Shown: piece by piece, positions 1 through 31,648 of the stretch
Layout: each line of letters opens with the position of its first letter
How positions within the stretch are numbered: the stretch's first letter is position 1
Source of the DNA: Candidatus Omnitrophota bacterium
Lineage (GTDB): Bacteria > Omnitrophota > Gorgyraeia > Duberdicusellales > 4484-171
Direction: 5' to 3'
Assembly (NCBI GenBank): GCA_020343495.1
Contig: CP070797.1
Coordinates: 1,510-65,509, forward strand
Length of the DNA: 64,000 nt
The notes under the pieces: model-generated
What the model was told of the DNA's origin: nothing
The model's input: the letters and a program-made list of their open reading frames with translations, nothing else
Databases searched by the model: none
Translations under genes and position numbers: made by a program

Positions 1-2062
1 CTTCTTTTTTCATCTTTTCTTTCTCCGCCGCCTCTTTGCTATCCATAATTTCAAAAACATTATCTGATGAATCATAAACAGACGTATCATTTGCATCGGA
101 CACTTTCATTTTAACTTCTGATGAAGAAAGTATATCTAGGGGAACCTGCCATAGAAACTGCCCTGTATTTTTTGTTTTTTCAACAATAGTGTTAAAACTC
201 TGGCCGTTATCAAGGGAATACTCTAACTTTATATCGTAGCTGTCTTCGTAATCCAGGGCTGACCACATTATTTCTTTTTCAATTCCTTTCTGCCAAAGTT
301 CTCCGCCGTTAGGAACAATCATACTAATAATACCCGGTGAACCGCTTAAAGTTAACTCTTCTAACCTTGAAGCTTGCGGGTCTCTTCTGTCAGGAGATAA
401 GTAAACGTTAGCTAAAATATTTTTTCCCGGAACAAAATCCCCTAAAGACGCATAGTAGTAAGCGCCGTTAACGCAACTCTTCTTAAAGTTAACGCCGTCG
501 TCAGCCGATACGTCCAGGGAGACATTTGTTCCTTTCCAGTCGGTAATTAAAATTCGCACATCAAACATAGCCCGTATCTTAACGGGAATGTAAAGACCTT
601 CTCTACTCTTATCATCCAACACAACGTCACCCTTTAAATCAATAACAGTATTTATGAACTGCGGCATCTCTACTTCTTCCTGTTTTTGAGCCTTGGTATC
701 CTTTAAAACCTGCGGTTCGGAGGGGGCGTATCGGCGCACTCTAACCCAATCATAACAGGCTTTGTTGTGGCCGGTCCCTATGGTTGAACGTAACCCCACA
801 TACCCTTGCTCAATGCCAAAAACGTCGCTAAAACTTACCTCTGCCTGCTTCTTGTCAAAGGCGTCACTATACCTTGCGAAAGTTAAATTCGGGCCGTCGG
901 CAATAACTCTATAATTGTATTTGGTATCTGTTGAAATTGGGCGTTTATCATTAACTTTTATATTGTCACCAACTACTATACAATGCTCTGCTTTTTCATA
1001 AACAGACGAATAAGCAATCAAACTTCTATCTTTACTCTCATCAAAGGTATCTTCGCCTCTTACAATAAACTCAATCTTTCTGCCTCTCTTAAGGGCTGCT
1101 GAATACTCAACTATACCGTCCCTAAGTTCATACGTTTTAGAAACAACGGTTGCGTCATCCAGTTCCAACTGCGAATCTAAAACAGCGTAGCTACCGTCTT
1201 TGCCACGTTTTATTTCCCACTTTTCAGTATCTAACTGTGCGCTGGAGAAATCATCAAAGAAATCAAACACCTCTTCCCCGCAAGATAAGTCTTGAGCGTC
1301 GGGATTGCCGTAATAAATGTAAATCTCTATTCCTGCCGGAGAGATTTGCGGGATTTTTACCCAGGCTACAGCTAACCGGTTGGGCTTGGTACCTTCTATC
1401 TTCTCAATGTAATGAGGAAGGATTGTCTCTTCGTCTAAACAAACGAACCGAACATCAGCAAAATCCGCCAGGATATTTCCTTCACAATGAAAGTCTGCTC
1501 CTTTAGTGCGCCGGGATTCACCCACTTTAAGTTCCATCTGATAATTAAACAAAGATTCATACAGCGGGTTATGGTTTATCTGAATCTTTTTTCTGTATTT
1601 AAACCCGCTTAGCTGCTGACTTCCAAAGGTTGCACCTACTCCGGTTTTATCCGTATAAGAAATCTTTACCTCAATAAGCTCGCTTGCCGGCCCAACATCT
1701 GCTTTCCATTTTAGACCTCTGCCGGTCTTAAAAAAATCCGTAGTTAAAGGCACGCCGTTAATTACAGAGGCGTACGTATCTCCATTATCAGCACTCACCT
1801 TTAACGTTACCTGGCCGCTAAACTGCCAGCTTGCAGTTATACTGGTTATATCGCCCTCGGTATAGATAACTTCTCGGGATTTATATTCTTCTGCGGATAA
1901 ACCTTTAGGCAGCAGATAATCTCCTTGCCCGTCTGTCCGCCAGACTACGGGAGATTTAAAAATCGTAACGTCACAAAAGGCGTATGATAAAGAAAACAGC
2001 CCTACTATTGCCGCTATTATTCCTACTTTAACTCCTGTTTTAATACCCTTACTCATCATCAT
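1..2062 (-). CDS. Partial CDS (first 687 codons, continues past the left edge). Secreted protein whose N-terminal head (signal peptide, beta-sandwich, DUF2341-like, ConA/LamG-like, Ig-like) is paralogous to the first ~690 aa of the giant protein upstream.
   Basis: Not in the ORF track because no stop lies in the window. Hand translation of the minus strand from three consecutive ATGs (2054-2062; GAGG 4-10 nt upstream) gives MMMSKGIKTGVKVGIIAAIVGLFSLSYAFCDVTIFKSPVVWRTDGQGDYLLPKGL...GFKYRKKIQINHNPLYESLFNYQMELKVGES...LAVAWVKIPQISPAGIEIYIYYGNPDAQDL...YDWVRVRRYAPSEPQV...MIVPNGGELWQKGIEKEIMWSALDYEDSYDIKLEYSLDNGQSF...SDNVFEIMDSKEAAEKEKMKKE. The frame stays open to nt 2 and is colinear by eye with giant-protein residues 1-690. 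Confidence 0.8.
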   Translation of the reverse strand, partial: MMMSKGIKTGVKVGIIAAIVGLFSLSYAFCDVTIFKSPVVWRTDGQGDYLLPKGLSAEEYKSREVIYTEGDITSITASWQFSGQVTLKVSADNGDTYASVINGVPLTTDFFKTGRGLKWKADVGPASELIEVKISYTDKTGVGATFGSQQLSGFKYRKKIQINHNPLYESLFNYQMELKVGESRRTKGADFHCEGNILADFADVRFVCLDEETILPHYIEKIEGTKPNRLAVAWVKIPQISPAGIEIYIYYGNPDAQDLSCGEEVFDFFDDFSSAQLDTEKWEIKRGKDGSYAVLDSQLELDDATVVSKTYELRDGIVEYSAALKRGRKIEFIVRGEDTFDESKDRSLIAYSSVYEKAEHCIVVGDNIKVNDKRPISTDTKYNYRVIADGPNLTFARYSDAFDKKQAEVSFSDVFGIEQGYVGLRSTIGTGHNKACYDWVRVRRYAPSEPQVLKDTKAQKQEEVEMPQFINTVIDLKGDVVLDDKSREGLYIPVKIRAMFDVRILITDWKGTNVSLDVSADDGVNFKKSCVNGAYYYASLGDFVPGKNILANVYLSPDRRDPQASRLEELTLSGSPGIISMIVPNGGELWQKGIEKEIMWSALDYEDSYDIKLEYSLDNGQSFNTIVEKTKNTGQFLWQVPLDILSSSEVKMKVSDANDTSVYDSSDNVFEIMDSKEAAEKEKMKKE

Positions 2063-2161: not shown

Positions 2162-5100
2162 TCACCTGAATTCAAACCAAACCTGAGTAACCGGTTTATT
2201 AGCAACGTTCTCAATCATCTTCTTAGATAAATCCATGGTTGCTTTCAGCTCTTCAGTCTTATTCTTTAAATAGGTCATGTCTTCTTTCTTTTCTTTAGAG
2301 ACCTCGTATACTTTTTCTAAATCAATATCTTCGGTAGCACCTAATGCTTTAATCTGTTTACTGATATGACTCAATTGCGTAAATATGTACTCTATCGCTT
2401 CTTCCATCTCGCTGATGTCTTCATCTACTCCCACGCCCTTCTCAAGGTTAATAATCTGAGCCAAGGCGCTCTCAATCATATTAATTTGACTCTCTATACC
2501 TTCCGCTGCTTGAGCAAACTCACTCAAACGGGAAGTCGTTCCTAAAATCGCAGCCGTAGTAGAAGCAACGTCGGCAATATCATACTCGCTTGCAGTAATA
2601 ACCATTGCATCCGTAGTCCCGAGAGTTTCTTCCGCACAGATAATACTAAAATCTCCTATCCCCCACTGGGTTAAAAACTCTACGTCAAATTCATAAATTC
2701 CGCTTCCCGGCGTTGTCTCTTTCATTATACCCTTAGAAACCACAGCTTTATTCATAGCATCATAAACATCTATACTGGGAACCAGGCCTGTCTTTGTGCG
2801 GTAACGAACAGCCAAACTACCTCCGCTTCTTACAGTGGTCTCCCGATTCAAAATCCCTGACTTAATGTGCGGCTGGACACCGCTGACTACCGTCTCAGTA
2901 ATAAAAGAAGGCAACGTCTCTGTAGTAGCAGTCAGAATCTCAGCCGTATCAACTTTTATCTCCTCAGCTTTGGAAACAACCGTGCTCTTTACCTCTTCTG
3001 CCTCCTCCTCTACAACTTCTCTAGTAACCTCTTCTTCCTGTCTTATCGTTTCTCTAGTAACCTCTGATTCTGCGGTTACGTGCTCTCTAACGCCAATAAC
3101 TTCCTCTTTTATCTCATCACTCACTTCTTCAATCTTATCGGTAACTTCCTTCAGCTTTTCAGTAACAGTAATGGTAAAAGTCGTGCCGGAATAATATGTT
3201 ACTTTATCACCGGAAGTACCACCGTAACCGATACTGCAGCGGGCAAAATAGGTCTTACCGCTAACCAGCATCTGGTTTAAACCCTGAGGTGGCAGGCCAT
3301 CAATACCTTCAACTACGTTCTCAACCCTATACCAATAATTGCCTTGCTCATCTGCCTCGGGGTCGGTAAGAGTACCTATTAATGTATCGCCGTCATAGAT
3401 TAATACCGTGGCCAGGCCTAAGGCGTTTATATCACTGGTGACAATCTGCTGGCCTCTCTTCTCCAGCCGCATTGTTGCAGTTAAGGTATCACTTCGTTCA
3501 TCATAAGCAAAGTCAGACAACACGCGATAATCCGCTAACGACTCGGCAACAGACATTACAAATATGGTCCAGCTTATCTTATTATCATATTTTCCGTCGA
3601 CTCCGTCAGCGCTAACGCCAACTAACTTTTCAATCTGGGTAGGAACATATGCGTCTTTGACAAAATTAAAGGTATACTTTCCATAGGGCAGAAAGAGTTC
3701 AAAGGGTTCCTCGCCTTGACGTTCAATAGTATCAAGTTTGATTTTACCCTGGATAATCTCCAGCTTAATCTCTATAAGCGGGTTTCCAAAGACTGAATCG
3801 CGGGCTTCCCAGGTAACGCTATAGCCCGACTCTACCACTATATTGCCTGAGGGGACAGTAGAGTCCAATCCCACAGATGAGCCGACTATTGTAAGAGACG
3901 CAGTAGCTTCAGGATAAGTTATGTTAGAGAACCTGGCCAATCCGTTTACTGCTGTTACCTTAGTAGTGGCGTCTGCTCCAAACGACCCTGCTGAAGGCTC
4001 TACTGTTACTTCGTCGCTTGCGGAACTCAAGTTTCCGTAAGCATCGCTTACTTTAATAACAAAAGGCGCCCAAATAGCATTGACAGCAGTAATACTCTTT
4101 GGCAGATTATCCGCATCCCAGGAAAGCTTACTTCCCACACCCCCGTAAACTACCACATCCAAATCCGTCGTTGAACGGGTTTTAACTACCCCTTCTTCGG
4201 CTTGGACACTTGTAGTTTCCGCTTTGTATAAGCGGATAATGGTAGTGGTAACTCCCCTAACAAATGTGAGAATAGTCCCTTGATTGAAGGGTACCTGAAC
4301 TTGGGTATTATTCTCGGCAGTAGGGGGAATTTCCTGGTCATCAGGAGAAGATCCAGGCCCATTAAATTTAAGAGTTTTATCGCCTTCGTAGTCAGTAACC
4401 ACGTTATTATATTGGTCATAAGTAGTAATAGTTATTGTTTTGGTGTCGCCGGCCTTCATTGTAGAGGTGTCCGCCGTGATTCCGAAGTAATTTTCAACTG
4501 CCGGCATAACCGTGATATCATCCGAGGCGTCGTCTATACCATCGTCGCCATCAGCCGGAACAGCGTCGGATACTGTAATCGTCCAGTAGCCAGGCTCTTC
4601 CCTGCTGGTCTTTTCATCATAATACCAGAAGTCAACGGTGCTTGAACCGTTCTGTATTGACCTGGTAGTCACAACATTTCCTTCAGTATCTTTAAATGAA
4701 GCAGCTGTTCCGTCGGAAGTGGTGTATAAATATACTCTATCCTCATCAATTGTTTGCGGGTTAAGGTAAGCGTCGTATCTGGTTAGAGTATATTTAACAC
4801 TTGTTCCGGCAACAATATAATCAATATCCTCAGGCGAAGTTAATAAAGCAAAACTATCCGTTAGACCAGAGGACACACTAATATCTATGTTACGAGTCTC
4901 ATCTCCTATAGTAGTTACAACTCCCTGGGTAACTTCCAGAGAAACATCCTCAACATTATAGCAAACCAATGTTAACGCTCCTGCGTCAGATACGCCTTGC
5001 GTAAAATTAACGCTGCCCACTGAAGCCGAACCATCAACAAACTCTACACCCTTTATTGTAGGGATAGCTCCCGAAGGAGAATTAGCCGGCCCCGATGTAA

Positions 5101-8100
5101 ATGTCAAGGCCTTTGGCCCTTCATATACTGTGGCTACGTTATGGAACTCATCATAAGCGGTTACTTGTAACTCATTGGTTTCTGTTGCTCTCATTGTATT
5201 GTCGCCGCCGGTAAACCTAAAATATTCAGCAGGAGCAGCAGTAACGCTAATATCTTCCTGAGTATCAGTTAACATAGGTTGTTCAGTATCAACGACAGTA
5301 ACCCTATGTTGTGAGTCTGTTGTTGTTGTTCTAAACGTTATGCCGCCGCTGAAAGTGTGTGAACCGGCATCTGCCATCACAAAAGTATAATTTAGCGGTA
5401 ACGTCGCTTTAGCATCGCTGCACTCAAACCTCACTGTGCCGCTGTAACCGCTGGCTCTGTTATCATGCTGGTCATATAAGGTAACAGTAATATCGTTAGG
5501 AGCGCCGGCAGTTATGGATTGGCTAAGGTCGCTAATCTGGAGTTTTACCGCATCGTCAGGTTTAACAGTGAAAGTATAAGAACCTGCTTCTAACGAATCT
5601 CCGCTGCTTCTGATAGCAGTAATAGTAGTTTTTTCTGGTTTGAGGTCACTGGCTTCGGTATCGCTATAATAGAACGGCGCACTCTGGCTCTCACCCACTA
5701 AAATTTCAATCTGGATAGTAGGATTCATGCCAAAGGGGTCACGGTAAAACATCTTTTCATCCGAACCAGAATCAGAATCAAGTATAAACGCAGTTTCACT
5801 ACTTACAGTTGCGTCGTTAGTTCCCGGGTCTTGAGCAATTATATAAAACGGCCCGGAAATAACTCCTGCATCTATAGTTTCAGGACCGGTAATCCTTACG
5901 TCTACTGCTACACCAGCTATAACCTCTAAATCAAGGTCGCGATCCTCACTGGCAAAGGAATTTACAGTTCCGTCAGAAACATCCACAGTAGTGATCTCTG
6001 CTTTGTAAGCGATTAAGGTTGCTCCACCCGCAACAGAGACGCCATTACTAAACATTATCGGCGTGGGCGTCCCTAACGGCACACCTTCCACTTCAGGGAC
6101 TGCCGCAGGGGCTGGGTTAGGCCCGGAGAATGTCAACTGTTTCTCGTCGGTATAATTGTTAGGGCCTGAGTCCACTAAATTGTCCAACACATCATAAGCC
6201 CTGATAGTCAATTCGTTTTCGCTTCCCGCAGCCATTGAGCTGTTACCGGTTACAATAAGGTAACTGGCAGGAGCAGGAACAATTGTTTCGGTCTGTGTAT
6301 CTGAAGTTAATCCCGGCACTGCCGTATCACTAACGGTAATTAGAGGTGTTCCCGGGTCATCATCATAATAATCAAAGGAAACTGTGTCTACTCCGGAATC
6401 GATATTAATCATACCCAGGCCTCCCGGTGGAGAAGTAGTGCCTGTATTGTAAAAAATCCCATTAGAGCTGGTCTCCAACTCAATGGTATATAATCCCAGC
6501 GCTTGAGGGTTATCAAACCTATCCTGGACCTGGACGCTCATAGTTCCCGGTTCACCGGCATTTAGGGTAAGCGCAGGATTCGTGATAACCAGTTTTTCTG
6601 CATCCGCAGGAATAACCGTCTGGGCCTGCTCATGGGAGTCTAAATCTCCTGCGGCATCGGTTACGGTTATTGCGGGGCTGCCTGCCTTTTCATCGTAGTA
6701 ATCAACAGTGACGGAACTGACTCCATCAGGGATAGCAATACTACTATCAGCAAGTTCGGTTTGCGTGCCGGTCTGATAGAAATGGTACTCTTGTTCCGGA
6801 GGGGTTGCCTGAGAGTCACTGCTTAGATTAACCTCTACAAACCCTTCTGACTGCGGACTTCCGAATGTATCCTGAACCTCAACAGTTATCGTTCCCTGTG
6901 TTCCGGCAGTTAAAGTAAACGCTGAAGATATAATGCGAAGTCTTGACGCTGTAGCAGGGATGATTGTATGAACCTGTTCATCAGAAGTAAGACCTGCTGC
7001 CTGGACAATAACCTTGGGCGTTCCCGGCTCCTCATCATAATAATCAAAGCGCACATAACTTTCTCCATTAAGGGCAGTCTTGCTGTTCATTGGGGTAGTG
7101 GTACCCTCTTCATAGAAATAATTGAAATCCGGTAATGGATATTCTCTGGCTGGAACAACAAGATAAATACCCTGCGGTTGAGGGTTGCCAAAACCATCCT
7201 GTATTTCAACATTCATTGTCCCCGGCAGGCCTGCTTCAAGACTGAGCGGGTCGGTAGTTATAACCAGTTTTTCTGCATCCGCAGGGATAATCGTCTGGGC
7301 CTGCTCATAGGGGTCTAAATTTCCTGCGGCATCGGTTACGGTTATTGTGGGATTACCTGCCTTTTCATCGTAGTAATCAACAGCGACGGAACTAGTTCCA
7401 GCAGGGATAGTAATACTGGTAGTGGCGGTTTGCGTCCCGGTTTGATAGAAATGGTATTCTTGCGGGTCAACTGCCTGGGAGTTACTTGCCAAATTAACTG
7501 TAAATGAGCCGTCCGACTGAGGGTTACCATGAATATCCTGGACTTCTACGGTAATTGCTCCCTGGACGCCTGCTGCCTGATTTAAAGCGTCAGAAGTAAT
7601 CTGCAACTGTGCTGCATCAGCCGGAGTAACGGCAATGCTATACGAATCATATCCTAAATCTTCGTCCCCTCCGCTTATCCATTTAGCAGTCACGGAAGGA
7701 CTTGCTACCTTTGTATCTTTGTAATAAAAAGTTGCTGTACCTGTTCCCGCATACATTGTTACGGTAGTAGCCTCTACCATTCCTCCGGCATCTAAATAAA
7801 ACAACTCCTCGCCTTGAGAATCTGAAGAAAGTTCAAACAGTTCATCGTTTTCCACGAGAGTGTCATTACTAACAATATCCTGGGCAGTTATTATAAAGGC
7901 GCCGGATACTTCATCCACAACAACTGCTGCCGGCCCGCTAAGTTCTATTATTGCAGCAGGCCCGGGTTTGGTGGTAATAGGGTCACTGTATCCCCTAACG
8001 CCGTTATCGTCCTTAGCTATTATCGTAATTGTTTCAGCAACGTTATTTTTAACATAAACCGTAGCTACGCCATCAATTAATCCGTACCTGGCAGGAGTCT

Positions 8101-11100
8101 TAAGTTGAAGATAGCTCTCATCTATATAGAACTGGGCATTACCCTCATTACCCTCGTTATCCTCGTTACTCATAATTACTTCGGTCTCAGAGTCAGTTGT
8201 CACTATGTTGCCGTAAGGGTCATAAGCAGTAACTGTAACCTCCCATCCGGTACCGGCATCCTGGTCGGTGTCGCAAGTTACCTCATAACGCTTAATAACA
8301 GAAGAAGGGCCAACCGTAATTGGGTCTGGATTGTGAAGACCGCTAATCTCGTTTTCCGGATCTTCTACAGTGACCGATTGCTCGCCTACGGTTTTTAGAA
8401 TTACTCCGTTACCTTTTGAGACGCTGAAGGTTACATACCCCGCTCCTAAACAATCAGCAGTCTGATAATGTATGGTTACGTCTTTTAACGTAGGCGTAAT
8501 TGTATTATCAGCGCTTGTCATAATTGCCTGATATTTGATATACTTATGGTTATTGTGGACGCTGGATATATCCTGGCCGGAAATGGTGTAGTAAAGGCCA
8601 GATACATCAGTTCCAACTTCACCTGCTGCTAAGTCTTCAATCTCATCAGGAGTTACTGCGCGGTTAAATATAGCCACTTCATCTACACTCCCAACATTTT
8701 GACTATCGGTATGATTGCCAATCCTACTTAAATCCTGTGTTATTTGTGTATTGGCTGTACTTACATAATTACCATCAATATAAAATTTTGTTGTCCCTCC
8801 CGAACTTATAGCTGCGATATGGTGCCAGCCTGCCGATAAAGAGTTGGTATTATATCCGCTCGAAGACCAACTATTGTTATAACATCCTATATTTCCGGAA
8901 GAATCCCATATAATATGATGATAAGTTCCCCCTTGCCGCTGGAATAAAGTTCTCCATCCCTGTGCTGTTGTGGGAAGCGGAAACTTAACCCATGCTGCCA
9001 TTGTTCTATCACCATTCATATTTATTGGTGAGATATTTACATAATCTGAAGTACCATCAAAATTCAATGCCCTTCCAAATTTGCCGGCAATCCAGACAGG
9101 AGTATTTACCAGTGTTCCTGTATTATTGCTAGGTGAACTATCTTGCGCACTCATGCCGCTACCTTCATTAAAATGCCATAACCCCACCAATCCTGGAATG
9201 AGGTCGGTCTGAGCGTCCCCTTCCCCCGGCCCCACAAACTCTGTCCAGCCGGTATCCGGGAGGGTTGAAGAAGCAATCAGGAATTTGATGCTTGTATCTT
9301 CAGGCACATCAGCATTCCAGGATATGCCGGAAAACCACGCCGGCTGCTCTAAATTCTTTATTGAGGAAGTAAACGTACCAGAAGTGCTATACAGCGTTTT
9401 ACTTTCCCACCAGGCAATGTCCCTGGCGTAATACGCCGACCCTAAGATATCTGTATCTCCATCGCTATCTATATCGGCGGCGTAGATACCCCAAGTATGA
9501 TCAAAACCTCCATCGATTACGTGTTTAGTAAAGCTTTGCATACCGTCGTTCTCATACCATGCCACGTCATCAGCATAAGCAGCCGAACCTAAAACATCAA
9601 TATCTCCGTCTCCATCTATATCTGTGGCATAGACGTCAATAGCGCCGTCAAAACCTCCATCAATTGTGTGTTTGGTGAAACTTTGCGCGCCGTTATTCTC
9701 CCACCAGGCAATGGCATCGTGGTAAAGCGCTGCACCTAACACATCAATATCGCCATCTCTATCTACATCAGTAGCGTAGATGCTGTAACCACAATCAAAA
9801 TACGTATCAATATTATGTTTGGTGAAACTCTGGTTACCGTCATTCTCATACCAGGCAATGTCATCCCAACCCTCTGATACACCTAAAACATCAATGTCGC
9901 CATCTTTATCTACATCTATAGCATAGACATCACGAACATAATAAAAATATGAATCAACAAAGTGTTTGGTAAAGTTCTGCTCCCCGTCATTCTCATACCA
10001 GGCAATGTCATGGTCGTAGACCGCTGCACCTAAAACATCCATATCTCCGTCGCTATCCACATCTATGGCATATACACTACAAGCATAATTAAAATTTCCA
10101 TCAATTACGTGCTTGGTAAAATTCTGCAGGCCATCATTCTCCCACCAGGCGATGTCATCAGTATTAGCTGCTGCACCCAAGACATCCATATCGCCATCAC
10201 TATCTACATCAACAGCATACACGCTATGGGCACCATCAAAACCTCCATCAATTATGTGCTTGGTAAAGTTCTGCGCGCCGTCATTCTCCCACCAGGCGAT
10301 GTCATCAGCTTCACGTGCTGCACCTAAAACATCCATATCTCCATCGCTATCCACATCTGCGGCGTAGACGTCAATAGCACCAACAAACTCTCCATCGATT
10401 ACATTTTTGGTAGTAGGGATAGCCACAGAATAAAGCGACAGTTCCGCTGCCTCGCCTGTTCCCCGCACTTGCGTACCTAAAGCCGGGCCGCTTGCGCCGC
10501 TTTTGAATTCCGTATCAGAACTCTGCCTCCATTCTTCAGGAACAACAAACCAGTAATTCTCAGGTAACACTGCTTGAGCATCTGTTGAAGAAAACTGGAT
10601 TTTACCGGTATAGTTCGCCGTAATATTGTTACTGGCATCCAATGCCGTTACTGTTATATCACTGGGCGTGCCGGCATTTATCGAGGACGGGATTCCTTCT
10701 ACTTTTAAACTTACTACTTCTTCGCCGCTGCCAACCACAATAGGAGAAGAGGCGCCCGAATAGTCGTAATCAGTAACGCTTATCGTAATAATTTCCGGCG
10801 TAGCGTCTTTAGCAAAAACAGTGGCAGTGCCTCCGGAAAGATTATAAAACACTGCTATCGTATCGTAGCTATCGTTGGTATAAAATTGCGCATCACCGTT
10901 GCTAGAAGGAGCAATTGCCACGGCTGCGCTGGCAACTGTATTGCCGTATTTATCTTTAGCTGTAACTGTCTCCTGCCAGCCAACACCTATGGTCTGAGGA
11001 GTGTGCGTGGTTACTTCATAATAACTGATATCGCCGGCTTCTACAGAGATGTATCCTGTGCTTGCCGTTATGTCATCTTTATCTTCAATCGTCAGGAAAA

Positions 11101-25064: not shown

Positions 25065-25961
25065 TTACCGAGATTGAACCTCGATATTTCGGATGACTTT
25101 ATCTTCGTAAAGTTCAACTTTCTCCTGGGAAAATGTCTGAGTAATCAACTCATTAATAATCCGGTCCCTCTGGCGCCTAGTATATTCAAACTCCACTTGC
25201 TGACGCACCTGCTTAAAAGGCTTATCCTGAGCAGGTTCTTTCTCGTTAATATGAAAGACGTAAAATTCATCCTTTATCTTAAGTACGTCAGTTACCTCGC
25301 CCTTATTAAGTTGAAAAATCTTATCTAACACCTGCGATGACAATATTTCTTCTAATTCGGGAGCAAAAGGTGCATCTTTTGAAATCCAGCTATCTATCCT
25401 GGTGATATTTCTTCCGCCGACTTTCTCAAAATTTCTGCCTTTATTCAATTGGTGGACTATTCTGTCTGCCTCCTTTTTGCTTTTTGATTTAACATAACTG
25501 AGCTTCACTTTTTCTTTTATGCGATATTTTTCTTTATTCTGCTCATAATATTTGCGCAAATCTTCTTCGCTGATTTTGAGTTTGGTGAATTCGTCAGCCA
25601 CCAACTTCTCAGCTAAAATCCCTCTCCTGGCGCGCTCTATCTCATGGATTACATCTGCTTCTCTGTCAAGTCCCTGACGCTTTGCCCTTTTAGCCAGGGC
25701 GAGGGTGGCAATATACTTACGGAAAAAATCCAGGCGCCAGGTTTTGCTCGTCTGGAAGTTCTCTTTAAGAAACCGGTTAAGTTTCTCTGATTCCCGCTCT
25801 AACTCCGAGAAGTATATCTTCTCTTTACCTATCGTTGCTATAATAAGGTCTTTGGCTGCCTCCTCTTCCTTAGACTCAGAAAAAACACTAGCCGTAACTA
25901 CAATCGTCATTACCGCCATCATTGGAACCAACAATTTTATTTTCATCATCCGCCTCTCCAT
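25065..25961 (-). CDS. Secreted PpiC/parvulin-type (SurA/PrsA-like) chaperone; the rotamase domain looks degenerate
   Basis: Signal-like MKIKLLVPMMAVMTIVVTASVFS. SurA-N-like helical region. Parvulin-like C-half: KVKLSYVKSKSKKEADRIVHQLNKGRNFEKV...LNKGEVTDVLKIKDEFYVFHINEKE. The true start is probably the internal ATGATG after GGAGAGG (M5/M6). Confidence 0.6.
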   Translation of the reverse strand: MERRMMKIKLLVPMMAVMTIVVTASVFSESKEEEAAKDLIIATIGKEKIYFSELERESEKLNRFLKENFQTSKTWRLDFFRKYIATLALAKRAKRQGLDREADVIHEIERARRGILAEKLVADEFTKLKISEEDLRKYYEQNKEKYRIKEKVKLSYVKSKSKKEADRIVHQLNKGRNFEKVGGRNITRIDSWISKDAPFAPELEEILSSQVLDKIFQLNKGEVTDVLKIKDEFYVFHINEKEPAQDKPFKQVRQQVEFEYTRRQRDRIINELITQTFSQEKVELYEDKVIRNIEVQSR

Positions 25962-25979: not shown

Positions 25980-26615
25980 TTATTCTATAAGTTTATGTTG
26001 AACGGCATACTTTATAAGTTCTGACGTCTTATGAAGCCCCAGTTTTTTAAGGAGATTATTCTTATAGTTTTCTACGGTCCTGCGGCTAATAAAAAGGACT
26101 TCGGCTATTTCTTTTGCGGTTTTTCCTTCTACTATGAGGCGTAAGATATCAGCCTCCCGTTCAGTAAGGATTTCTTCAGCCGGTCCCTTGCCCTCACGGG
26201 TAACTTTTTCTATCATATACCGGGAAACCTGAGGGCTCATATACACCTCTCCCTTAGAAACATTACGTAAAGCCGGCAAGAGTTCCTCAACAACGTTCTC
26301 CTTATGAAGATACCCTTTAACGCCTAACTTCAATGCTTTTGCTATATAAATATTTGCCCGGTGCACTGTAACCATAATGACTTTTGTATTCGGCGAAAGA
26401 TAACGAATTTGCTCAATTACATCAAGGCCGCTCTTTTTAGGCATTGTAATATCCAGGAGAATGATATCCGGTTTAAGATTTTCTGTATTGCGAATAACTT
26501 CTTCTCCGTCTACAGCCTCACCCACCACTTTATACTCTGCCTGATTACGTAATATACTCTTGATTCCTTCACGAATAACGTCGTGATCGTCAGCAATCAA
26601 TACTTTCACCGCCAT
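25980..26615 (-). CDS. NarL/FixJ-family response regulator (REC + LuxR-type HTH)
   Basis: VLIADDHDVIREG...DIILLDITMPKKSGLDV...LTEREADILRLIVEGKTAKEIAEVLFISRRTVENYKNNLLKKLG. Confidence 0.9.
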   Translation of the reverse strand: MAVKVLIADDHDVIREGIKSILRNQAEYKVVGEAVDGEEVIRNTENLKPDIILLDITMPKKSGLDVIEQIRYLSPNTKVIMVTVHRANIYIAKALKLGVKGYLHKENVVEELLPALRNVSKGEVYMSPQVSRYMIEKVTREGKGPAEEILTEREADILRLIVEGKTAKEIAEVLFISRRTVENYKNNLLKKLGLHKTSELIKYAVQHKLIE

Positions 26616-26629
26616 TTCTTGTCTCCTTC

Positions 26630-27967
26630 TTACACTACCAATTCCACACTAATCTTAGTTCCTTTACTCACCTGGCTCTTAATATCCAACTTACCGCCTA
26701 AGAGCTCTATCCTTTCCCTTAACCCCTGTAAGCCCAGCTTCAACTTATCTTCACGTCGGCGCCGCGGCCGAGTGAGAAACTGCTGGTAATCAAACCCTTT
26801 ACCGTCGTCGCTAACGCTAAGATACACGGTGCGGTCTTTTTTCTGAAGGGATACCGTAACATTTCTTGCGTCAGCGTGTTTAATAACATTGGTTAAACAC
26901 TCCTGCACTACGCGGTAAAGAGCAAGGCTGTATTCGGGAGCGAGTTTTAAATCATAAGCCGGCTTATAATAGCGGTACTTACAATGCATTAGTTTCTGGT
27001 GTTCCGACACTAAAGCAGCGATACTTTCTACCAACCCTAAATCATCCAACTCCGGCGGCCGCAACAACTCAGAAATATTATGCCCTCTATAAATTAAGCT
27101 GTCTAATATCCCTTTACTTTTCTCAATCTTTTCTCTCTGCTCAAGGTTTTTGCCCTCTATATTTTTCTCAATAAGTTCTAAATAAATCTTTAATGCGCTT
27201 AAGTCCTGGCTTAACTGGTCGTGAATTTGACGGGAAAGGTTTTTACGTTCCTCCTCTTCCAGGCGAATCATTTTGCGGACAAGCCATTCCCGTCTCGTGC
27301 GTTCCTCTTCAAGGCTCTTATACACAAAAACAGCGATAGTTACTCCCAAAAGGATACTAAAAACCAAACTCACTAATAAAATAGCTGTAGAAACGTCCTT
27401 CTGTCTATAAGTTAACTTTAACTGCCGCTCAATATCTTTAAGATTGTTTTTACTTAACGTATTGGCCAGGAGGTCATCAATGCGGTAAAACTTATTTTCA
27501 AAAGAAATAAGAAATCTATTTACTTTTTCGCTGTCTTCGGCAGCGCTGTCTACTAACTCAATAAGTTTTTTACCGGTTTCTTCCAATCCTTTAGCTAATT
27601 CCTCAATAATTTTAAGCCAGTTCTCCTCTTGCTGTGAATCTGCCAGTAAATAATATTGCTTAATATAGTCTTTAAACTTAGCAGAGGATTTCTCAATAAA
27701 GTTCATATCGGAAGCAACTGAGGCAGCGTGCAGATACTTAGAAATACGCCAGGACACGTAATTGCGGACCCCCATGGAGTAAAAAGTGTTTTCAATTTTC
27801 ATCTCTAAAATTACCCTCTCTTTGGGTAAATACTTCTGCTCAAAATTCTCAATGGCTTTAGTCAAAACGTTAATTTGCAGCAGCCCCATAATGCCAATAC
27901 TTACGGTAAGGACAAGAAATAAACCAAACCCGATTAATAGCCTTTTTTCTCTAAAATATACTTTCAT
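26630..27967 (-). CDS. Sensor histidine kinase, HisKA_3/NarX-LiaS type, with a ~160-aa extracytoplasmic helical region
   Basis: TM1 at residues ~10-30 and TM2 at ~193-216. H-box RQIHDQLSQDLSALK. HATPase motifs ECLTNVIKHA, VSDDGKGFD, GLQGLRERIELLGG. Confidence 0.9.
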   Translation of the reverse strand: MKVYFREKRLLIGFGLFLVLTVSIGIMGLLQINVLTKAIENFEQKYLPKERVILEMKIENTFYSMGVRNYVSWRISKYLHAASVASDMNFIEKSSAKFKDYIKQYYLLADSQQEENWLKIIEELAKGLEETGKKLIELVDSAAEDSEKVNRFLISFENKFYRIDDLLANTLSKNNLKDIERQLKLTYRQKDVSTAILLVSLVFSILLGVTIAVFVYKSLEEERTRREWLVRKMIRLEEEERKNLSRQIHDQLSQDLSALKIYLELIEKNIEGKNLEQREKIEKSKGILDSLIYRGHNISELLRPPELDDLGLVESIAALVSEHQKLMHCKYRYYKPAYDLKLAPEYSLALYRVVQECLTNVIKHADARNVTVSLQKKDRTVYLSVSDDGKGFDYQQFLTRPRRRREDKLKLGLQGLRERIELLGGKLDIKSQVSKGTKISVELVV

Positions 27968-27988: not shown

Positions 27989-28729
27989 CTATTGGGAATA
28001 TTTTCCTTCAGGGAAAACCTGCTGATAAACCACGTCCTTAAGCCGGTTTATCCAGTTTAAGACTTCTTGCTTATCGGATGCCTCAGGTTTAAGTTCTAAA
28101 TATTTCTGATAATGAAGGATAGCTTTCTCCGGCTCTAAATTAAAGTTTTCATACAAAAGGCCTAAATTATAATGTGCCTCAGCATTCTTTGGTTCAAAAC
28201 TTAAAGATTTCTCATAGGCCTCAACAGCTTTACTGAAAAGCTTAGCCTGAACATAGGATACTCCTAAATTATAATAGTAGAATCCTCTTTCTTTTCTTAA
28301 AGTCTCTTCTAAAGTTACTACTTTCGCTTTAAGCTCGCTGTGTTCTTTAGCTAAAACATCCTGCTTCTCGTCTTTGGCTTCCGTTTCTTTAGTCATCTGG
28401 CTCTTTAATAATTCCAGCTGGCTACTTAAATTTTCTATATTTATATCTTTTCCTTCTACTGAGGATTTTAACTTTTTAATCTCTTCTTGCAACTGAGTAG
28501 TAAACTTTGTATAGTAAACCGCGTCAGCCTGAAACTCCTGGTTTTCCTCAAGTATTGTTTTCTTCTCTTTCTCCAAACGCTTAATATCTTCTTTTAGTTT
28601 CTCTGCTAGCTGGTCCGACTGGTCTAACTGCATCTGAAAAGAACTACCTTTTAAATAGAAACTTACCGCTACTGCAGCTATTGATATACTCCAAATTACA
28701 AGAATCGCGACCAAAATTTTCTGCGTCAT
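27989..28729 (-). CDS. Membrane-anchored coiled-coil + TPR protein
   Basis: N-terminal TM ILVAILVIWSISIAAVAVSFYL. About 110 aa of heptad-rich KE/LE sequence. C-terminal TPR-like region: YYNLGVSYVQAKLFSKAVEAYEKSLSFEPKNAEAHYNLGLLY. Confidence 0.7.
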   Translation of the reverse strand: MTQKILVAILVIWSISIAAVAVSFYLKGSSFQMQLDQSDQLAEKLKEDIKRLEKEKKTILEENQEFQADAVYYTKFTTQLQEEIKKLKSSVEGKDINIENLSSQLELLKSQMTKETEAKDEKQDVLAKEHSELKAKVVTLEETLRKERGFYYYNLGVSYVQAKLFSKAVEAYEKSLSFEPKNAEAHYNLGLLYENFNLEPEKAILHYQKYLELKPEASDKQEVLNWINRLKDVVYQQVFPEGKYSQ

Positions 28730-28751
28730 CTGCTACTACCGATTACAGGCG

Positions 28752-28765
28752 AGGGGCCTTCCCCT
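28752..28765 (-). other. Small GC-rich hairpin between the two TPR genes
   Basis: Sense AGGGG-AAGG-CCCCT (5-bp stem, 4-nt loop). No U-tract follows. Confidence 0.3.
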
Positions 28766-28766
28766 T

Positions 28767-29777
28767 TTACTGTAGAATATTTATCAGGTCTCTTGCTTTT
28801 TCGTTATATTTACCGTAAGGCTCCAACTCCAGATACTCGCGAAAACATTCTACGGCTATTTTAGAATCTTTTCTTTGATATTGATACAACAGCCCCAGGT
28901 AATAATATATAAGAGGGTCATCTGCCCTCAGGGTTAAAGATTTCTTATACGCTTCTATCGCTTCATTATACAACTTTGCCTTAACATAAGAAGCTGCTAA
29001 CTGTGCATAAAGAGCTGACTTTTCTTTTTTATTCTTTTCTTTCTCTTTAGATAAAGCTTGGGAAAACGCCGCCAGTTTCTCTTCTAAAGCCTTATTCTTA
29101 GCTTCAACTTCAGACACGCCAGCCGCAAATGCAGCTAATTTATCCTTAGAATCTTTCTCATCTTGCTTTTGTCCCTCATCTGATTTAGCTTTGGCTGCCC
29201 TTTTTATATCACGTTCAAACTTATCCAGGACTTCGTCTAACTCACTCCTGGTGTAACTTTTTCCTGTCAGCGGCGCTGCCTTCCTTCCCACATCTTCTAC
29301 GGATACGCCCAGTTTAGCGGCTATATCTGCAAGATGTTGTTGTGCTTTATCTGTCCAGGGATCACTTTTCTCTCCCAACTTTATTCTCCTCCTCCAGTAA
29401 TAGGCAGATTCCTGATAATCGCCTTTCTCTTCATAAAGCAAGGCTAAATTAGAATATGCGCTTATACATTTGGGGTCTTTCTCTATACATTTTAAATAAT
29501 ACCGGGCTGCTTCTTGAGGCTGGCCCTTTGCTTCATATATAACTCCTATATCATTATAGAGAATAAAATAGGCGGGGTCTAAAGTTAAAGCTCGCTGGTA
29601 AAAACTCATTGCAGCATCTATATCGCCTTTTTTCTGAGAGGCGTACCCTTTATTTCGAAGTTCTCTTGCACTTTGCTGTAATGCCGTCAATTGCCCGGCT
29701 TCTAAATAAGGAACATAGATAAAAACTGCTATTAAAAAAGACAGAACTCCAAACTTTAATCCCAAACATCTCATCAA
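28767..29777 (-). CDS. Secreted TPR / coiled-coil / TPR protein
   Basis: Signal-like LKFGVLSFLIAVFIYVPYLEA. TPR units: AMSFYQRALTLDPAYFILYNDIGVIYEAKGQPQEAARYYLKCIEKDPK and more. A central charged coiled coil, then C-terminal TPRs. Confidence 0.7.
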   Translation of the reverse strand: MMRCLGLKFGVLSFLIAVFIYVPYLEAGQLTALQQSARELRNKGYASQKKGDIDAAMSFYQRALTLDPAYFILYNDIGVIYEAKGQPQEAARYYLKCIEKDPKCISAYSNLALLYEEKGDYQESAYYWRRRIKLGEKSDPWTDKAQQHLADIAAKLGVSVEDVGRKAAPLTGKSYTRSELDEVLDKFERDIKRAAKAKSDEGQKQDEKDSKDKLAAFAAGVSEVEAKNKALEEKLAAFSQALSKEKEKNKKEKSALYAQLAASYVKAKLYNEAIEAYKKSLTLRADDPLIYYYLGLLYQYQRKDSKIAVECFREYLELEPYGKYNEKARDLINILQ

Positions 29778-31583: not shown

Positions 31584-31597
31584 ACTTTATAATTTTA

Positions 31598-31644
31598 TCA
31601 CAGAAAATTAAAAAACAGAAGAATTTGACTACGATTTTCTGTGA
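31598..31644 (-). promoter_or_regulatory. 11-bp inverted repeat between the two secretin genes, with a competing terminator-like pairing
   Basis: Plus strand tcacagaaaat (31598-31608) pairs with attttctgtga (31634-31644). On the sense strand the 5' arm ACAGAA (31637-31642) can instead pair with TTCTGT (31615-31620), which is directly followed by TTTTT. Confidence 0.4.
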
Positions 31645-31648
31645 ACTT

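What the first reader, a model, noticed from the sequence alone, without database searches (positions are those of the whole stretch)
2162..24496. 22.3-kb uninterrupted ORF encoding a 7,444-aa secreted mosaic protein with no recognisable catalytic or anchoring domain
**Seen in the sequence**
- One open frame of 22,335 nt.
- An N-terminal signal/anchor helix.
- A DUF2341-like/ConA-like head and six LamG-type domains.
- Four beta-propellers and dozens of Ig-like domains.
- A C-terminal ~700 aa containing a carboxypeptidase-regulatory-like beta unit and acidic coiled coils.

**Not seen**
- Any hydrolase or lyase signature I recognise.
- Any LPXTG, PEP-CTERM, T9SS or autotransporter C-terminus.
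- About 500 aa (encoded ~20750-22270) and the tail (2162-4200) are unassigned.

**Inference**
- This is a surface or extracellular binding/adhesion fibre.
- Its export and function are not explained by known sorting signals.
- Giant ORFs next to secretion genes have, to my recollection, been noted in metagenomic Omnitrophota genomes, but no mechanism is established.
Basis: partly seen in the sequence, partly recalled or inferred. Interest (0 to 1): 0.8.

Follow-up and report, generated by a model that had tools for sequence, protein, structure and literature searches.

The report
Giant secreted adhesin-like fibre of Omnitrophota
This is a real 7,443-residue gene of an uncultured Omnitrophota bacterium: an unusually long member of a phylum-wide family of secreted lectin/Ig-domain fibres with a conserved "head" and "tail", next to outer-membrane secretin genes, so giant genes of this kind are known but the family's export and anchoring parts have not been described.

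Summary
The ORF is real: 2162..24496 on the minus strand, 7,444 codons with no stop. It is already in GenBank as UCD15472.1, "DUF2341 domain-containing protein", from a 1.52-Mb Candidatus Omnitrophota MAG contig.

- one N-terminal Sec-type signal peptide, the only hydrophobic segment
- a DUF2341 head
- five LamG domains, four 7-bladed beta-propellers and about 30 Ig-like domains
- a coiled-coil-rich C-terminus
- no catalytic domain or known sorting signal detected

New here:
- **Head** (aa 42-685): a conserved Omnitrophota family. In 12 of 15 assessable species loci it follows the cassette AAA+ ATPase, GspC/PilP-like protein, secretin(s), TPR protein, histidine kinase, LuxR regulator. The window has this cassette.
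- **Tail** (last 480-650 aa, ending ...KPVTQVWFEFR): a Pfam-less C-terminal module with 613 cluster representatives, many 2,000-6,600 aa long.
- **Partner gene**: in 73 of 80 metagenome loci the tail gene is followed at once by a small C-terminally membrane-anchored protein, which is sometimes fused to the tail.

Best reading: a Sec-exported, secretin-dependent, tail-tethered adhesion fibre. The route, the anchoring and the ligand are inferred. The partner gene is not visible in this window. Residues 742-1270 remain unassigned.

The parts
2162..24496 (-). Giant ORF (7444 codons from GTG). The GenBank CDS starts at the ATG at 24493: UCD15472.1, 7443 aa, locus tag inferred as JSV34_00015.
24374..24496 (-). 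Signal peptide (aa 1-41; ...ITAVYA|DPDTV). It is the only hydrophobic segment of the protein.
   Evidence: An AxA-type site is conserved across the head family alignment.
22442..24373 (-). Conserved 'head' (aa 42-685): beta-sandwich, DUF2341 (aa 209-293), ConA-like region, beta-sandwich, Kre9/KNH-like Ig domain.
   Evidence: 98 homologues at 35-48% identity, almost all Omnitrophota. Pfam results.
20687..22273 (-). Unassigned 'mid' region (aa 742-1270). It is conserved at 48-60% identity in four other sequences but has no profile, PDB or usable structure-model match.
4103..20620 (-). Repetitive body (aa 1293-6798): 5 LamG, 4 propellers, 4 split jelly-rolls, about 30 Ig-like domains, arranged as propeller / jelly-roll(+LamG) / Ig supermodules.
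2165..4099 (-). Conserved 'tail' (aa 6800-7444): beta-sandwich, ~80-aa helix, beta-sandwich, helical region.
   Evidence: Family size: 613 representatives.
2165..2197 (-). Terminal motif KPVTQVWFEFR-COOH. It is near-invariant at the exact C-terminus of family members and disordered in the model.
1..2062 (-). 5' part of a tandem paralogue (UCD15471.1, 1000 aa): the same head (~44% identity) followed by a Gly-rich beta-helix-like C-terminus. It runs off the window end.
24503..24799 (-). 98-aa ORF (UCD15473.1) with a strong Shine-Dalgarno sequence, ending just upstream of the giant gene's start. It contains a 7-aa / 21-nt repeat, xW(I/V)(F/V)DPx.
25065..25949 (-). Secreted SurA-like PPIase (Rotamase_2), UCD15474.1.
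25980..27967 (-). Two-component system: LuxR-type response regulator (25980-26615) and HisKA_3 histidine kinase with two TM segments (26630-27967).
   Evidence: Conserved in related loci.
27989..29777 (-). Two TPR proteins with an N-terminal signal or anchor. Best sub-threshold matches are PilW/Tgl/PilF-type secretin pilotins.
29829..33265 (-). Two tandem secretins (GspD/PilQ/MshL-like; UCD15479.1, UCD15480.1).
33267..33908 (-). Bitopic inner-membrane protein (TM at aa 59-80) with a periplasmic C-terminal region resembling GspC-HR/PilP.
   Evidence: (TIGR01713, E=0.0086, weak). Conserved next to the secretin in related loci.
33937..34779 (-). Cytoplasmic AAA_22 ATPase of the GspA/ExeA/MshM type (best match TIGR03015, below cut-off).

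Best explanation
The ORF is a genuine gene of an Omnitrophota bacterium. It encodes an extreme-length member of a phylum-specific family of extracytoplasmic fibre proteins.

**Build of the family**
- a Sec signal peptide
- a conserved ~640-aa head (DUF2341 plus lectin-like beta-sandwiches)
- a variable string of LamG lectin, beta-propeller and Ig-like domains
- a conserved 480-650-aa tail ending in ...KPVTQVWFEF(R/K)

Typical complete head-to-tail members are about 2,070 aa. This one is 3.6 times longer because it carries four propeller / jelly-roll / LamG / Ig supermodules.

**Proposed mechanism**
1. The protein is exported by Sec.
2. It leaves the periplasm through the secretin module encoded just upstream: an AAA+ GspA/MshM-like ATPase, a GspC/PilP-like protein, two secretins and two TPR pilotin-like proteins.
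3. It stays tethered to the cell by its tail. In relatives the tail is encoded beside, or fused to, a small type-I membrane protein.
4. It uses its lectin and propeller domains to bind glycans on another cell or particle.
5. The intervening histidine kinase and LuxR regulator control expression.

**Shown:** gene integrity, domain content, membership of the head and tail families, and the synteny statistics.
**Inferred:** the outer-membrane route, the tethering, the orientation of the fibre and the ligand.
For: **Gene and architecture**
- The ORF and its public annotation.
- A single N-terminal hydrophobic segment.
- LamG, FG-GAP and DUF2341 with no catalytic profile or motif.
- Domain map.

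**Head family and secretin cassette**
- The head has 98 homologues of 640-1230 aa, nearly all Omnitrophota.
- Of 15 assessable GTDB species loci with enough upstream sequence, 12 show the order AAA_22, ~220-aa protein, secretin(s), TPR, HisKA_3 kinase, LuxR regulator, head gene, on one strand.
- The head occurs in three arrangements: alone; directly followed by a separate giant LamG/Ig gene (L007, L008, L021, L027, L001); or fused to one (window, L004, L011, L014, L016, L022).

**Tail family and partner gene**
- The tail has 613 cluster representatives at E<=1e-3, many 2,000-6,600 aa long. In most of the listed ones the match runs to the last residue, and 18 of 19 close homologues end on the motif.
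- A ~254-aa gene (signal peptide, beta domain, coiled coil, C-terminal TM) follows the tail gene at a median gap of 39 nt in 73 of 80 metagenome loci.
- In P0117, P0139 and L084 this small protein is fused to the tail. In P0117 and P0139, whose sequences were read, the join is exactly at its mature N-terminus.
- Complete head-plus-tail ORFs of 2,065-2,132 aa exist.

**Envelope type**
- Markers of a two-membrane envelope are in the window: secretins, a SurA-like PPIase and a lipid A acyltransferase.
Against: - No experiment links any secretin to any protein of this family.
- The window contains no GspE/F, pseudopilin or pilin genes. The secretin module could belong to a type IVa pilus encoded elsewhere and merely be a neighbour.
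- The small membrane-protein gene is not in this window. Downstream lies a head paralogue, then the window ends.
- In some complete ~2,070-aa head-plus-tail loci the 3-5 kb upstream holds a diversity-generating retroelement, not the cassette. L003 and L011 also lack the cassette.
- No precedent is known to me for a ~800-kDa protein passing a secretin.
- Residues 742-1270 are conserved but unassigned, so an enzymatic role is not excluded.
- Fold search of the tail found only generic Ig/macroglobulin-type sandwiches.
Confidence: 0.5

Rival explanations
1. Type IVa pilus-associated adhesin. The secretin/TPR/PilP-like module is the outer-membrane part of a T4aP machine. The DUF2341 head (or the tail) docks the giant protein onto the pilus, much as PilY1/PilC sit at pilus tips, so the fibre is displayed on a retractile pilus rather than threaded on its own.
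For: - Makarova et al. 2016 (PMC4858521) proposed that large DUF2341 proteins in archaeal T4P loci are tip adhesins.
- NCBIfam best matches of the secretins include PilQ, and those of the TPR proteins include PilW/Tgl.
- In related loci the tail gene lies a few kb upstream of F-type ATPase genes and a MshEN/T2SSE ATPase (L046).
- L003 has T2SSJ/K and PilM-PilN genes 8 kb from a head gene.
- L011 has a MshEN-type ATPase upstream.
Against: - No pilin, PilB/C or PilMNO gene lies in the 64-kb window.
- No PilC/PilY1 domain was detected.
- The protein has a Sec-type, not a prepilin-type, leader.
- The conserved small partner protein has a C-terminal, not an N-terminal, TM helix, so it is not pilin-like.
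Confidence: 0.17
2. Released type II secretion substrate or coat protein. The protein is pushed out through the secretin and released, or is loosely bound as an extracellular matrix or cell 'coat', without a dedicated anchor.
For: - A Sec signal plus a neighbouring GspD-like secretin and a GspC-like protein.
- West-Roberts et al. report T2SS-like loci, including a Rotamase_2 PPIase, upstream of Omnitrophota giant genes.
- A coat role was proposed for the V. archaeovorus giant protein.
Against: - The near-invariant C-terminal module, its adjacent or fused membrane-anchored partner in relatives, and the fused forms that end in a TM helix all argue for tethering.
- No GspE/F/G-K genes lie in the window.
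Confidence: 0.13
3. Surface 'leg' of an F1-like-ATPase-driven attachment or gliding apparatus. The giant fibre would be anchored in the inner membrane through the small partner protein and mechanically coupled to the non-respiratory F-type ATPase encoded downstream in relatives. This would be analogous to Mycoplasma mobile Gli349/Gli521 and its type-2 F1-like ATPase.
For: - In 28-34 of 80 tail loci the order is tail gene, small TM protein, Peptidase_MA_2, RR-GGDEF, F-ATPase epsilon, b/delta, alpha, gamma, beta.
- Seymour et al. relate these 'symbiotic' Omnitrophota F-ATPases to the Mycoplasma gliding ATPases and find them co-located with T4aP genes.
Against: - No F-ATPase gene is visible in this window.
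- The link rests on adjacency only.
- In a cell with two membranes, force would have to be transmitted across the periplasm and outer membrane.
- No sequence relation to Gli proteins was tested.
Confidence: 0.08
4. Cell-wall- or polysaccharide-degrading enzyme carrier. The conserved unassigned region (aa 742-1270) would be a cryptic glycan-active catalytic domain, with the LamG, propeller and Ig domains acting as carbohydrate-binding and spacer modules, in line with the predation hypothesis for Omnitrophota giant proteins.
For: - The mid region is conserved at 48-60% identity in L004, L011, L014 and P0123, with many invariant acidic and aromatic residues.
- West-Roberts et al. argue for cell-wall degradation by giant proteins.
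Against: - There is no Pfam, NCBIfam or PDB-profile hit, even at E<=1-10.
- There is no HExxH or similar motif.
- The structure model was unusable (pLDDT 32), so this is untested rather than supported.
Confidence: 0.08
5. Artefact: an assembly chimera or decaying pseudogene that happens to stay open.
For: None found. Reads could not be examined.
Against: - 7,444 open codons.
- Every part has protein-level relatives or recognisable domains.
- The N-terminal 1,720 aa are colinear with L014 and L004, and L011 matches in two colinear blocks.
- Head-plus-tail ORFs exist elsewhere.
- Internal DNA repeats reach at most 84% identity.
Confidence: 0.02

Closest known systems
Giant ORFs of Omnitrophota (Seymour et al. 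2023, PMC10066038; West-Roberts et al. 2023, bioRxiv 10.1101/2023.11.21.568195; Nielsen & Lui 2026, bioRxiv 10.64898/2026.06.07.730766)
   Same: - Same phylum.
- ORF longer than 20 kb.
- Laminin_G_3 and adhesion-type domains.
- Secretion/pilus genes and a Rotamase_2 PPIase nearby.
- Fits the 'tandem-repeat scaffold' class that includes PF13385 carriers.
   Different: - The 'Archaeovorin' and 'Dockerin-type' proteins are >30,000 aa with many TM helices, SecA_DEAD, C39/S8 peptidase or dockerin/TSP3 domains. This protein has one signal peptide and none of those.
- At 7.4 kaa it falls below the 10-kaa cut-off of the 2026 catalogue.
- A term search of those three papers found no 'DUF2341' or 'secretin', and their giant-ORF and context sections that I read do not describe the head family, the tail family, the small TM partner or the AAA_22 / GspC-like / secretin / TPR / two-component cassette.
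Type I-secreted giant RTX adhesins (LapA, SiiE, MpIBP). Comparison from my own knowledge.
   Same: - A several-thousand-residue string of Ig-like spacers with ligand-binding modules.
- A conserved terminal module proposed to retain the fibre in the envelope while the rest is outside.
   Different: - Those lack a Sec leader, carry C-terminal RTX repeats and a T1SS signal, and are retained by an N-terminal plug in a TolC-like pore.
- Here there is a Sec leader, no RTX repeat, no ABC/MFP/TolC neighbours, and the conserved candidate retention module is C-terminal.
PilY1/PilC pilus-tip adhesins and the large DUF2341 proteins of archaeal type IV pilus loci (Makarova et al. 2016, PMC4858521)
   Same: - Sec-exported large adhesin candidates encoded with type IV pilus / secretin genes.
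- DUF2341 is the shared domain with the archaeal proteins.
   Different: - No PilC/PilY1 propeller domain was detected.
- No pilin genes lie in the window.
- It is 6-7 times longer.
- It has its own conserved tail and partner protein.
Surface-retained type II secretion substrates (PulA, SslE/YghJ). Comparison from my own knowledge.
   Same: - A Sec signal and a GspD-type secretin next door.
- The protein may stay on the cell surface.
   Different: - Those are lipoproteins of at most about 1,500 aa, secreted by a complete Gsp machine.
- Here there is no lipobox, the protein is five times larger, and only secretin-side components lie nearby.
Mycoplasma mobile gliding proteins Gli349/Gli521 with a type-2 F1-like ATPase. 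Comparison from my own knowledge and from the discussion in PMC10066038.
   Same: - Multi-thousand-residue surface proteins.
- Relatives of this gene lie just upstream of a non-respiratory F-type ATPase operon.
   Different: - No sequence similarity was tested.
- Mycoplasma has a single membrane.
- No ATPase operon is visible in this window.

Membership tests
Omnitrophota DUF2341-head protein family (defined here) | Signal peptide followed by a ~640-aa head alignable end to end with family members | tested here: met
   35-48% identity over ~90% of the 741-aa query to dozens of Omnitrophota proteins, E down to 3e-195. Alignments.
Omnitrophota DUF2341-head protein family (defined here) | Upstream cassette on the same strand: AAA_22, ~220-aa bitopic protein, secretin, TPR, HisKA_3 kinase, LuxR regulator | tested here: met
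   The window has all of these, with the secretin and the TPR duplicated. The same order is seen in 12 of 15 assessable species loci.
WFEF-tail giant protein family (defined here) | C-terminal ~480-650-aa module ending ...KPV(T/V)Q(T/V)W(F/Y)E(F/Y)(R/K) at the very end of the protein | tested here: met
   (36-48% identity to most homologues, full length in most; 18 of 19 end at the motif); 613 representatives, 309 of them at E<=1e-30.
WFEF-tail giant protein family (defined here) | A small gene (signal peptide + C-terminal TM) immediately downstream of the tail gene | tested here: not met
   tblastn finds none in the window. A head paralogue follows the giant gene and then the window ends. The gene is present in 73 of 80 related loci. 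The rest of this genome could not be read.
Type I-secreted RTX adhesins | C-terminal GGxGxD nonapeptide repeats and T1SS signal; no Sec leader; ABC/MFP/TolC genes nearby | tested here: not met
   No GGxGxD motif and no HemolysinCabind hit. A Sec leader is present. No such neighbours.
Type V secretion (autotransporter / two-partner) | C-terminal beta-barrel translocator or N-terminal TPS domain | tested here: not met
   No such Pfam or NCBIfam hit. The tail model is beta-sandwich plus helices.
T9SS, LPXTG and PEP-CTERM cargo | A T9SS C-terminal domain, or a C-terminal motif followed by a TM helix and a basic tail | tested here: not met
   No profile hit. The only hydrophobic segment is N-terminal. 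The two LPxTG strings are internal.
Archaeovorin / Dockerin-type giant proteins (West-Roberts et al.) | >30,000 aa, many TM helices, SecA_DEAD, C39/S8 peptidase, glycosyltransferases or dockerin/TSP3 repeats | tested here: not met
   7,444 aa, one hydrophobic segment, none of these domains. Definitions taken.
Type II secretion substrate | Sec/Tat export plus dependence on a Gsp machine (GspD, C, E, F, pseudopilins) | tested here: inconclusive
   A Sec leader, GspD-like secretins and a weak GspC-like protein are present. GspE/F and pseudopilins are absent from the window. Dependence is not testable in silico.
PilY1/PilC pilus-tip adhesins | PilC/PilY1 C-terminal propeller domain; encoded with minor pilins | tested here: not met
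   No such Pfam hit. No pilin genes in the window.

The most novel reading that the evidence does not exclude
The gene would be the visible part of an undescribed, Omnitrophota-wide sorting and anchoring system for giant surface fibres.

**Proposed system**
- A conserved C-terminal domain ending in WFEF(R/K) docks onto a small type-I inner-membrane protein.
- The fibre is threaded through a dedicated secretin.
- The DUF2341 lectin-like head sits at or near the distal end.
- In effect this is a single-polypeptide 'pilus'.

**Lower-probability extension**
The fibre would be mechanically or regulatorily coupled to the Mycoplasma-type F1-like ATPase / type IVa pilus locus that lies just downstream in many relatives.
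Probability: 0.3. Interest if true: 0.78.

Novelty: new member of a known kind. Interest (0 to 1): 0.55.

Why it matters
Omnitrophota are ultra-small, uncultured and apparently host-dependent bacteria. Their giant genes are suspected to mediate attachment or predation, but how such proteins leave the cell, stay attached and are controlled is unknown.

This locus, read together with about 120 related loci, breaks one class of these proteins into testable parts:
- a conserved head tied to a secretin module and a two-component system
- a Pfam-less C-terminal module present in hundreds of giant proteins
- a small membrane protein that almost always follows that module, or is fused to it

These give concrete targets for interaction modelling, antibodies, cryo-electron tomography and new profile models. 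They would also let giant adhesin genes be recognised in fragmented metagenomes from their ends alone.

Tried and rejected
**Led nowhere**
- Looking up the source contig by exact protein failed for two window proteins. The source was identified through cluster look-ups instead.
- Rfam and tRNA scans of the window found nothing.
- AlphaFold2 of aa 731-1270 with a 4-sequence alignment failed (pLDDT 32), so no fold search was run on it.
- Searches with that region found nothing: a PDB profile built from 5 sequences and Pfam at E<=1.
- The PDB profile search with the head found nothing. With the tail it found only coiled-coil look-alikes.
- Foldseek of the tail model gave only generic Ig/macroglobulin sandwiches.
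- Promoter and terminator scans around both ends of the gene were at chance level.
- The first attempt to fetch related loci with a 21-sequence head alignment failed for lack of a conserved stretch. A 7-sequence alignment worked.

**Considered and rejected**
- That the 21-nt repeat upstream of the gene is a shared regulator-binding array. It lies inside an annotated 98-aa ORF, is not enriched window-wide (13 matches against 8.5 expected) and has no counterpart in related loci.
- That the SurA-like PPIase belongs to the conserved cassette. It was not found at that position in the other loci.
- RTX, LPXTG, PEP-CTERM, T9SS and autotransporter sorting.
Full report
**1.
The window has a single open frame at 2162..24496 on the minus strand, 7,444 codons, opening with GTG followed by ATG at codons 2 and 4. 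All but one of the 37 ORFs of at least 150 aa are on the same strand, and GC skew is uniformly negative. From the base composition a stop is expected about every 18 codons, so by my arithmetic an open run of this length has a chance probability near 1e-188. Internal DNA repeats, mainly propeller blades with 141-159-nt periods, share only 60-84% identity. The ORF is therefore not the kind of sequence that assemblers collapse or inflate, although reads could not be examined.

**2. Source.**
Exact-sequence look-ups show the window is the start of a 1,516,639-bp NCBI contig of a "Candidatus Omnitrophota bacterium" MAG (locus tags JSV34_). The giant protein is already deposited as one CDS: UCD15472.1, 7,443 aa, "DUF2341 domain-containing protein".

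**3. Anatomy.**
- Only one segment is hydrophobic enough for a membrane helix: aa 19-40, followed by VYA|D. This is a Sec-type signal peptide.
- Pfam detects DUF2341 (aa 209-293), Laminin_G_3 and FG-GAP repeats, and no enzyme family. NCBIfam detects nothing in the head, mid or tail.
- Self-comparison shows unique ends (aa 1-1500 and 6800-7444) around a repetitive core.
- Iterated HMMs built from the protein's own repeats resolve:
  - five LamG domains
  - two 7-bladed propellers of an unnamed "DSNDKVHISY" repeat
  - two FG-GAP propellers with 12 integrin-like DxDxDG loops
  - four split jelly-rolls, three carrying a LamG insert
  - about 30 Ig-like domains
- These are organised as repeated propeller / jelly-roll(+LamG) / Ig supermodules.
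- There is no HExxH motif, no RTX repeat, no C-terminal LPXTG or PEP-CTERM, and no autotransporter, TPS or T9SS profile.
Two details were not confirmed: the sixth "LamG" is an unverified ConA-like stretch in the head, and the "carboxypeptidase-regulatory-like" unit has no profile support.

**4. The head is a family of its own, tied to a secretin cassette.**
- The first 741 aa find 98 proteins, nearly all Omnitrophota. They share 35-48% identity over about 90% of the query and are 640-1,230 aa long.
- One of them (UCD15471.1, 1,000 aa) is encoded immediately downstream of the giant gene in this window. It is a tandem paralogue whose C-terminus is a Gly-rich beta-helix-like region.
- Family members share the head but differ after it: nothing, a ~150-aa domain, a beta-helix, or thousands of residues.
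- A scan of one genome per GTDB species returned 24 Omnitrophota loci. Searching their ORFs with the window's proteins shows a fixed same-strand order upstream of the head gene in 12 of the 15 loci with enough upstream sequence: AAA_22 ATPase, ~220-aa protein, one or two secretins, TPR protein, HisKA_3 kinase, LuxR regulator. One further locus is partial, and L003 and L011 lack the cassette.
- The window has exactly this cassette, with two secretins and two TPR proteins, plus a SurA-like PPIase and a 98-aa ORF before the giant gene.
- The ATPase is GspA/ExeA/MshM-like (best match TIGR03015, below cut-off).
- The ~220-aa protein is bitopic, with a periplasmic end resembling the GspC-HR/PilP secretin-binding domain. 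That match is weak (E=0.0086).
- The TPR proteins resemble PilW/Tgl pilotins.
- The inner-membrane parts of a type II system or a type IV pilus are absent from the 64 kb.

**5. Fusion patterns.**
- In L007, L008, L021 and L027, and in L001 after a toxin-antitoxin pair, an 840-1,000-aa head gene is directly followed by a separate giant LamG/Ig gene. In the first four the reading frames overlap.
- In the window and in L004, L011, L014, L016 and L022, the head is the N-terminus of the giant protein.
- L014 (at least 3,976 aa) and L004 are colinear with the first 1,720 and 1,344 residues here at 45-50% identity. L011 matches in two colinear blocks at 41% and 56%. This argues against a chimeric join in that part.

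**6. The tail is a large, undescribed C-terminal module.**
- The last 485 aa find 19 homologues with no Pfam domain. Almost all are C-terminal fragments, and 18 of the 19 end exactly at ...YLKNKTxELKA...KPVTQTWFEF(R/K).
- A profile search of 1.84 billion cluster representatives finds 613 proteins at E<=1e-3 and 309 at E<=1e-30. Many are 2,000-6,618 aa long. In most of the listed ones the match runs to the last residue. The exceptions carry an extension after the motif or match only part of the profile. None in the top 150 is as long as this protein.
- Their N-terminal parts are diverse, so the tail family is wider than the head family.
- The AlphaFold2 model of the tail (mean pLDDT 73.7) has a beta-sandwich, an ~80-residue helix, a second beta-sandwich, a helical region and a disordered last 11 residues.
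- Fold and sequence searches against solved structures give only generic Ig/macroglobulin sandwiches and coiled coils.

**7. A partner protein.**
- Two tail proteins (P0117, P0139) continue past the WFEF motif into ~190-230 further residues that end in a TM helix.
- The same sequence is a separate gene right after the tail gene in L019, L022, L045 and L046. There it starts with its own signal peptide. The fusions join the tail to its mature N-terminus.
- A metagenome scan returned 80 further tail loci. By clustering, the ~254-aa partner gene follows the tail ORF at a median gap of 39 nt on the same strand in 73 of the 80. By a stricter profile test it does so in 63 loci, plus one fusion, of 75 assessable.
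- The partner has no Pfam match.
- Complete ORFs carrying both head and tail are typically 2,065-2,132 aa. The window's protein is therefore an expansion of about 3.6-fold.
- Further downstream, many relatives carry Peptidase_MA_2 (37 loci), RR-GGDEF (32) and an F-type ATPase operon (28-34). In L046 a MshEN/T2SSE ATPase follows. This is the non-respiratory "symbiotic" F-ATPase / type IVa pilus locus described by Seymour et al..
- None of these downstream genes can be seen in this window. The head paralogue comes next, and then the window ends close to the start of the record.

**8. Mechanism.**
I commit to a Sec-exported, cell-tethered adhesion fibre.
- *Shown:* one Sec-type leader; a lectin/propeller/Ig composition; a conserved head in conserved synteny with a secretin module and a two-component system; a conserved tail whose gene is nearly always followed by, and sometimes fused to, a small membrane-anchored protein; markers of a two-membrane envelope in the window.
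- *Inferred:* the secretin is the outer-membrane conduit; the tail and its partner hold the C-terminus at the inner membrane, so that the fibre threads outward with the head distal; the ligands are glycans on host or prey cells. With about 55 globular domains of roughly 4 nm each, the fibre could span about 200 nm, on the order of these cells' own size.
- *Weak points:*
  - there is no experimental link
  - there is no precedent for so large a secretin passenger
  - the partner gene is missing from the visible window
  - some head-plus-tail loci have a diversity-generating retroelement, not the cassette, directly upstream
  - the secretin module may really belong to a type IVa pilus
- Rivals, with rough weights: pilus-associated adhesin (0.17), released type II substrate or coat (0.13), leg of an F1-like-ATPase apparatus (0.08), carrier of a cryptic enzyme in aa 742-1270 (0.08), artefact (0.02).

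**9. Comparison with what is known.**
- Giant ORFs with laminin_G_3 or discoidin domains and an adhesion role are reported for Omnitrophota.
- Type II/IV secretion genes and a Rotamase_2 PPIase upstream of giant genes are reported by West-Roberts et al. and confirmed by Nielsen and Lui. The kind is therefore known.
- This protein is not an "Archaeovorin" or "Dockerin-type" giant: it has one hydrophobic segment and no SecA_DEAD, C39/S8 or dockerin domain.
- It fails the defining features of type I RTX adhesins, type V systems, T9SS, LPXTG and PEP-CTERM cargo.
- DUF2341 proteins have been proposed as pilus-tip adhesins in archaea and noted in giant Patescibacteria proteins.
- A term search of the three Omnitrophota papers found no "DUF2341" or "secretin". 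The sections I read do not describe the head family, the WFEF tail, its partner protein or this particular cassette. A library-wide search for DUF2341 returned 9 papers, none on Omnitrophota.

**10. Verdict.**
The ORF is real and already annotated. It is a new, very long member of a known kind, the giant adhesin-like ORFs of Omnitrophota. Its interest lies less in its length than in the conserved ends and neighbours found here. These turn "how are these giants exported and anchored?" into a testable question.

Noticed in passing
window 24503-24799 (-): A 98-aa ORF (UCD15473.1) with a strong Shine-Dalgarno sequence ends just upstream of the giant gene's start. About eight tandem 21-nt units encode a heptad xW(I/V)(F/V)DPx. 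Five copies of TGGATTTTTGATCC-like sequence lie at spacings of 21 or 42 nt. There is no Pfam match and no counterpart in related loci.
   Followed up: partly
window 1-2062 (-): A tandem paralogue of the giant's head (UCD15471.1, 1000 aa) has a Gly-rich beta-helix-like C-terminus (GGxGGG repeats). Similar Gly-rich beta-helix stretches occur at the N-termini of several tail-bearing giants (P0134, P0143, P0153).
   Followed up: partly
L046 1994-5237; also L095, L107, L056, L062, L071, L093, L100 upstream of the tail-bearing giant gene: Diversity-generating retroelement parts recur directly next to giant tail-bearing genes: a bAvd-like protein, a reverse transcriptase, and 480-530-aa proteins that in L046 match FGE-sulfatase (a C-type-lectin-like fold). 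Pfam evidence exists for L046 only. In the other loci they were recognised from sequence read by eye.
   Followed up: no
L005 8455-9342, L007 8729-9622, L011 8903-9601, L095 1793-2638, L107 356-1210; L046 13780-14448: IS200/RAYT-like (Y1_Tnp-type, 'GG(I/V)YH(V)...') ORFs recur at the same position, between the LuxR regulator and the head gene, or near tail genes. Only the L046 ORF has Pfam support (Y1_Tnp). The others were read by eye.
   Followed up: no
L012 8145-8522, L015 5534-5956, L016 9658-9945, L020 6838-7155: A small (~100-aa) secreted protein with the motif ETIYTKDGxxIQAKIxEKTxDTxWYE lies just upstream of head genes in four species. It is not present in the window.
   Followed up: no
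L047-L126, 0.8-6 kb downstream of tail genes: The conserved downstream order is small TM protein, Peptidase_MA_2, RR-GGDEF, then F-type ATPase epsilon, b/delta, alpha, gamma, beta. This places this class of giant genes beside the 'symbiotic' F-ATPase / T4aP locus of Seymour et al. The passages of that paper returned by term searches do not link giant ORFs to that locus.
   Followed up: partly
L001 12657-13342: A nucleotidyltransferase/HepT-type toxin-antitoxin pair is inserted between the 843-aa head gene and the 3,457-aa giant gene. L046 has a ParE toxin next to its head gene.
   Followed up: no
window 1-64000: 36 of the 37 ORFs of at least 150 aa are on the minus strand. GC skew is negative in every 2-kb bin, so the whole window lies on one replichore with strict co-orientation.
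   Followed up: no
window 45689-47905 (-) and 47938-48408 (-): A Na+/H+ exchanger is fused to a PTS EIIA_2 domain. Next to it is a small dual-specificity phosphatase of the 'polymorphic toxin system' Tc-R-P type.
   Followed up: no
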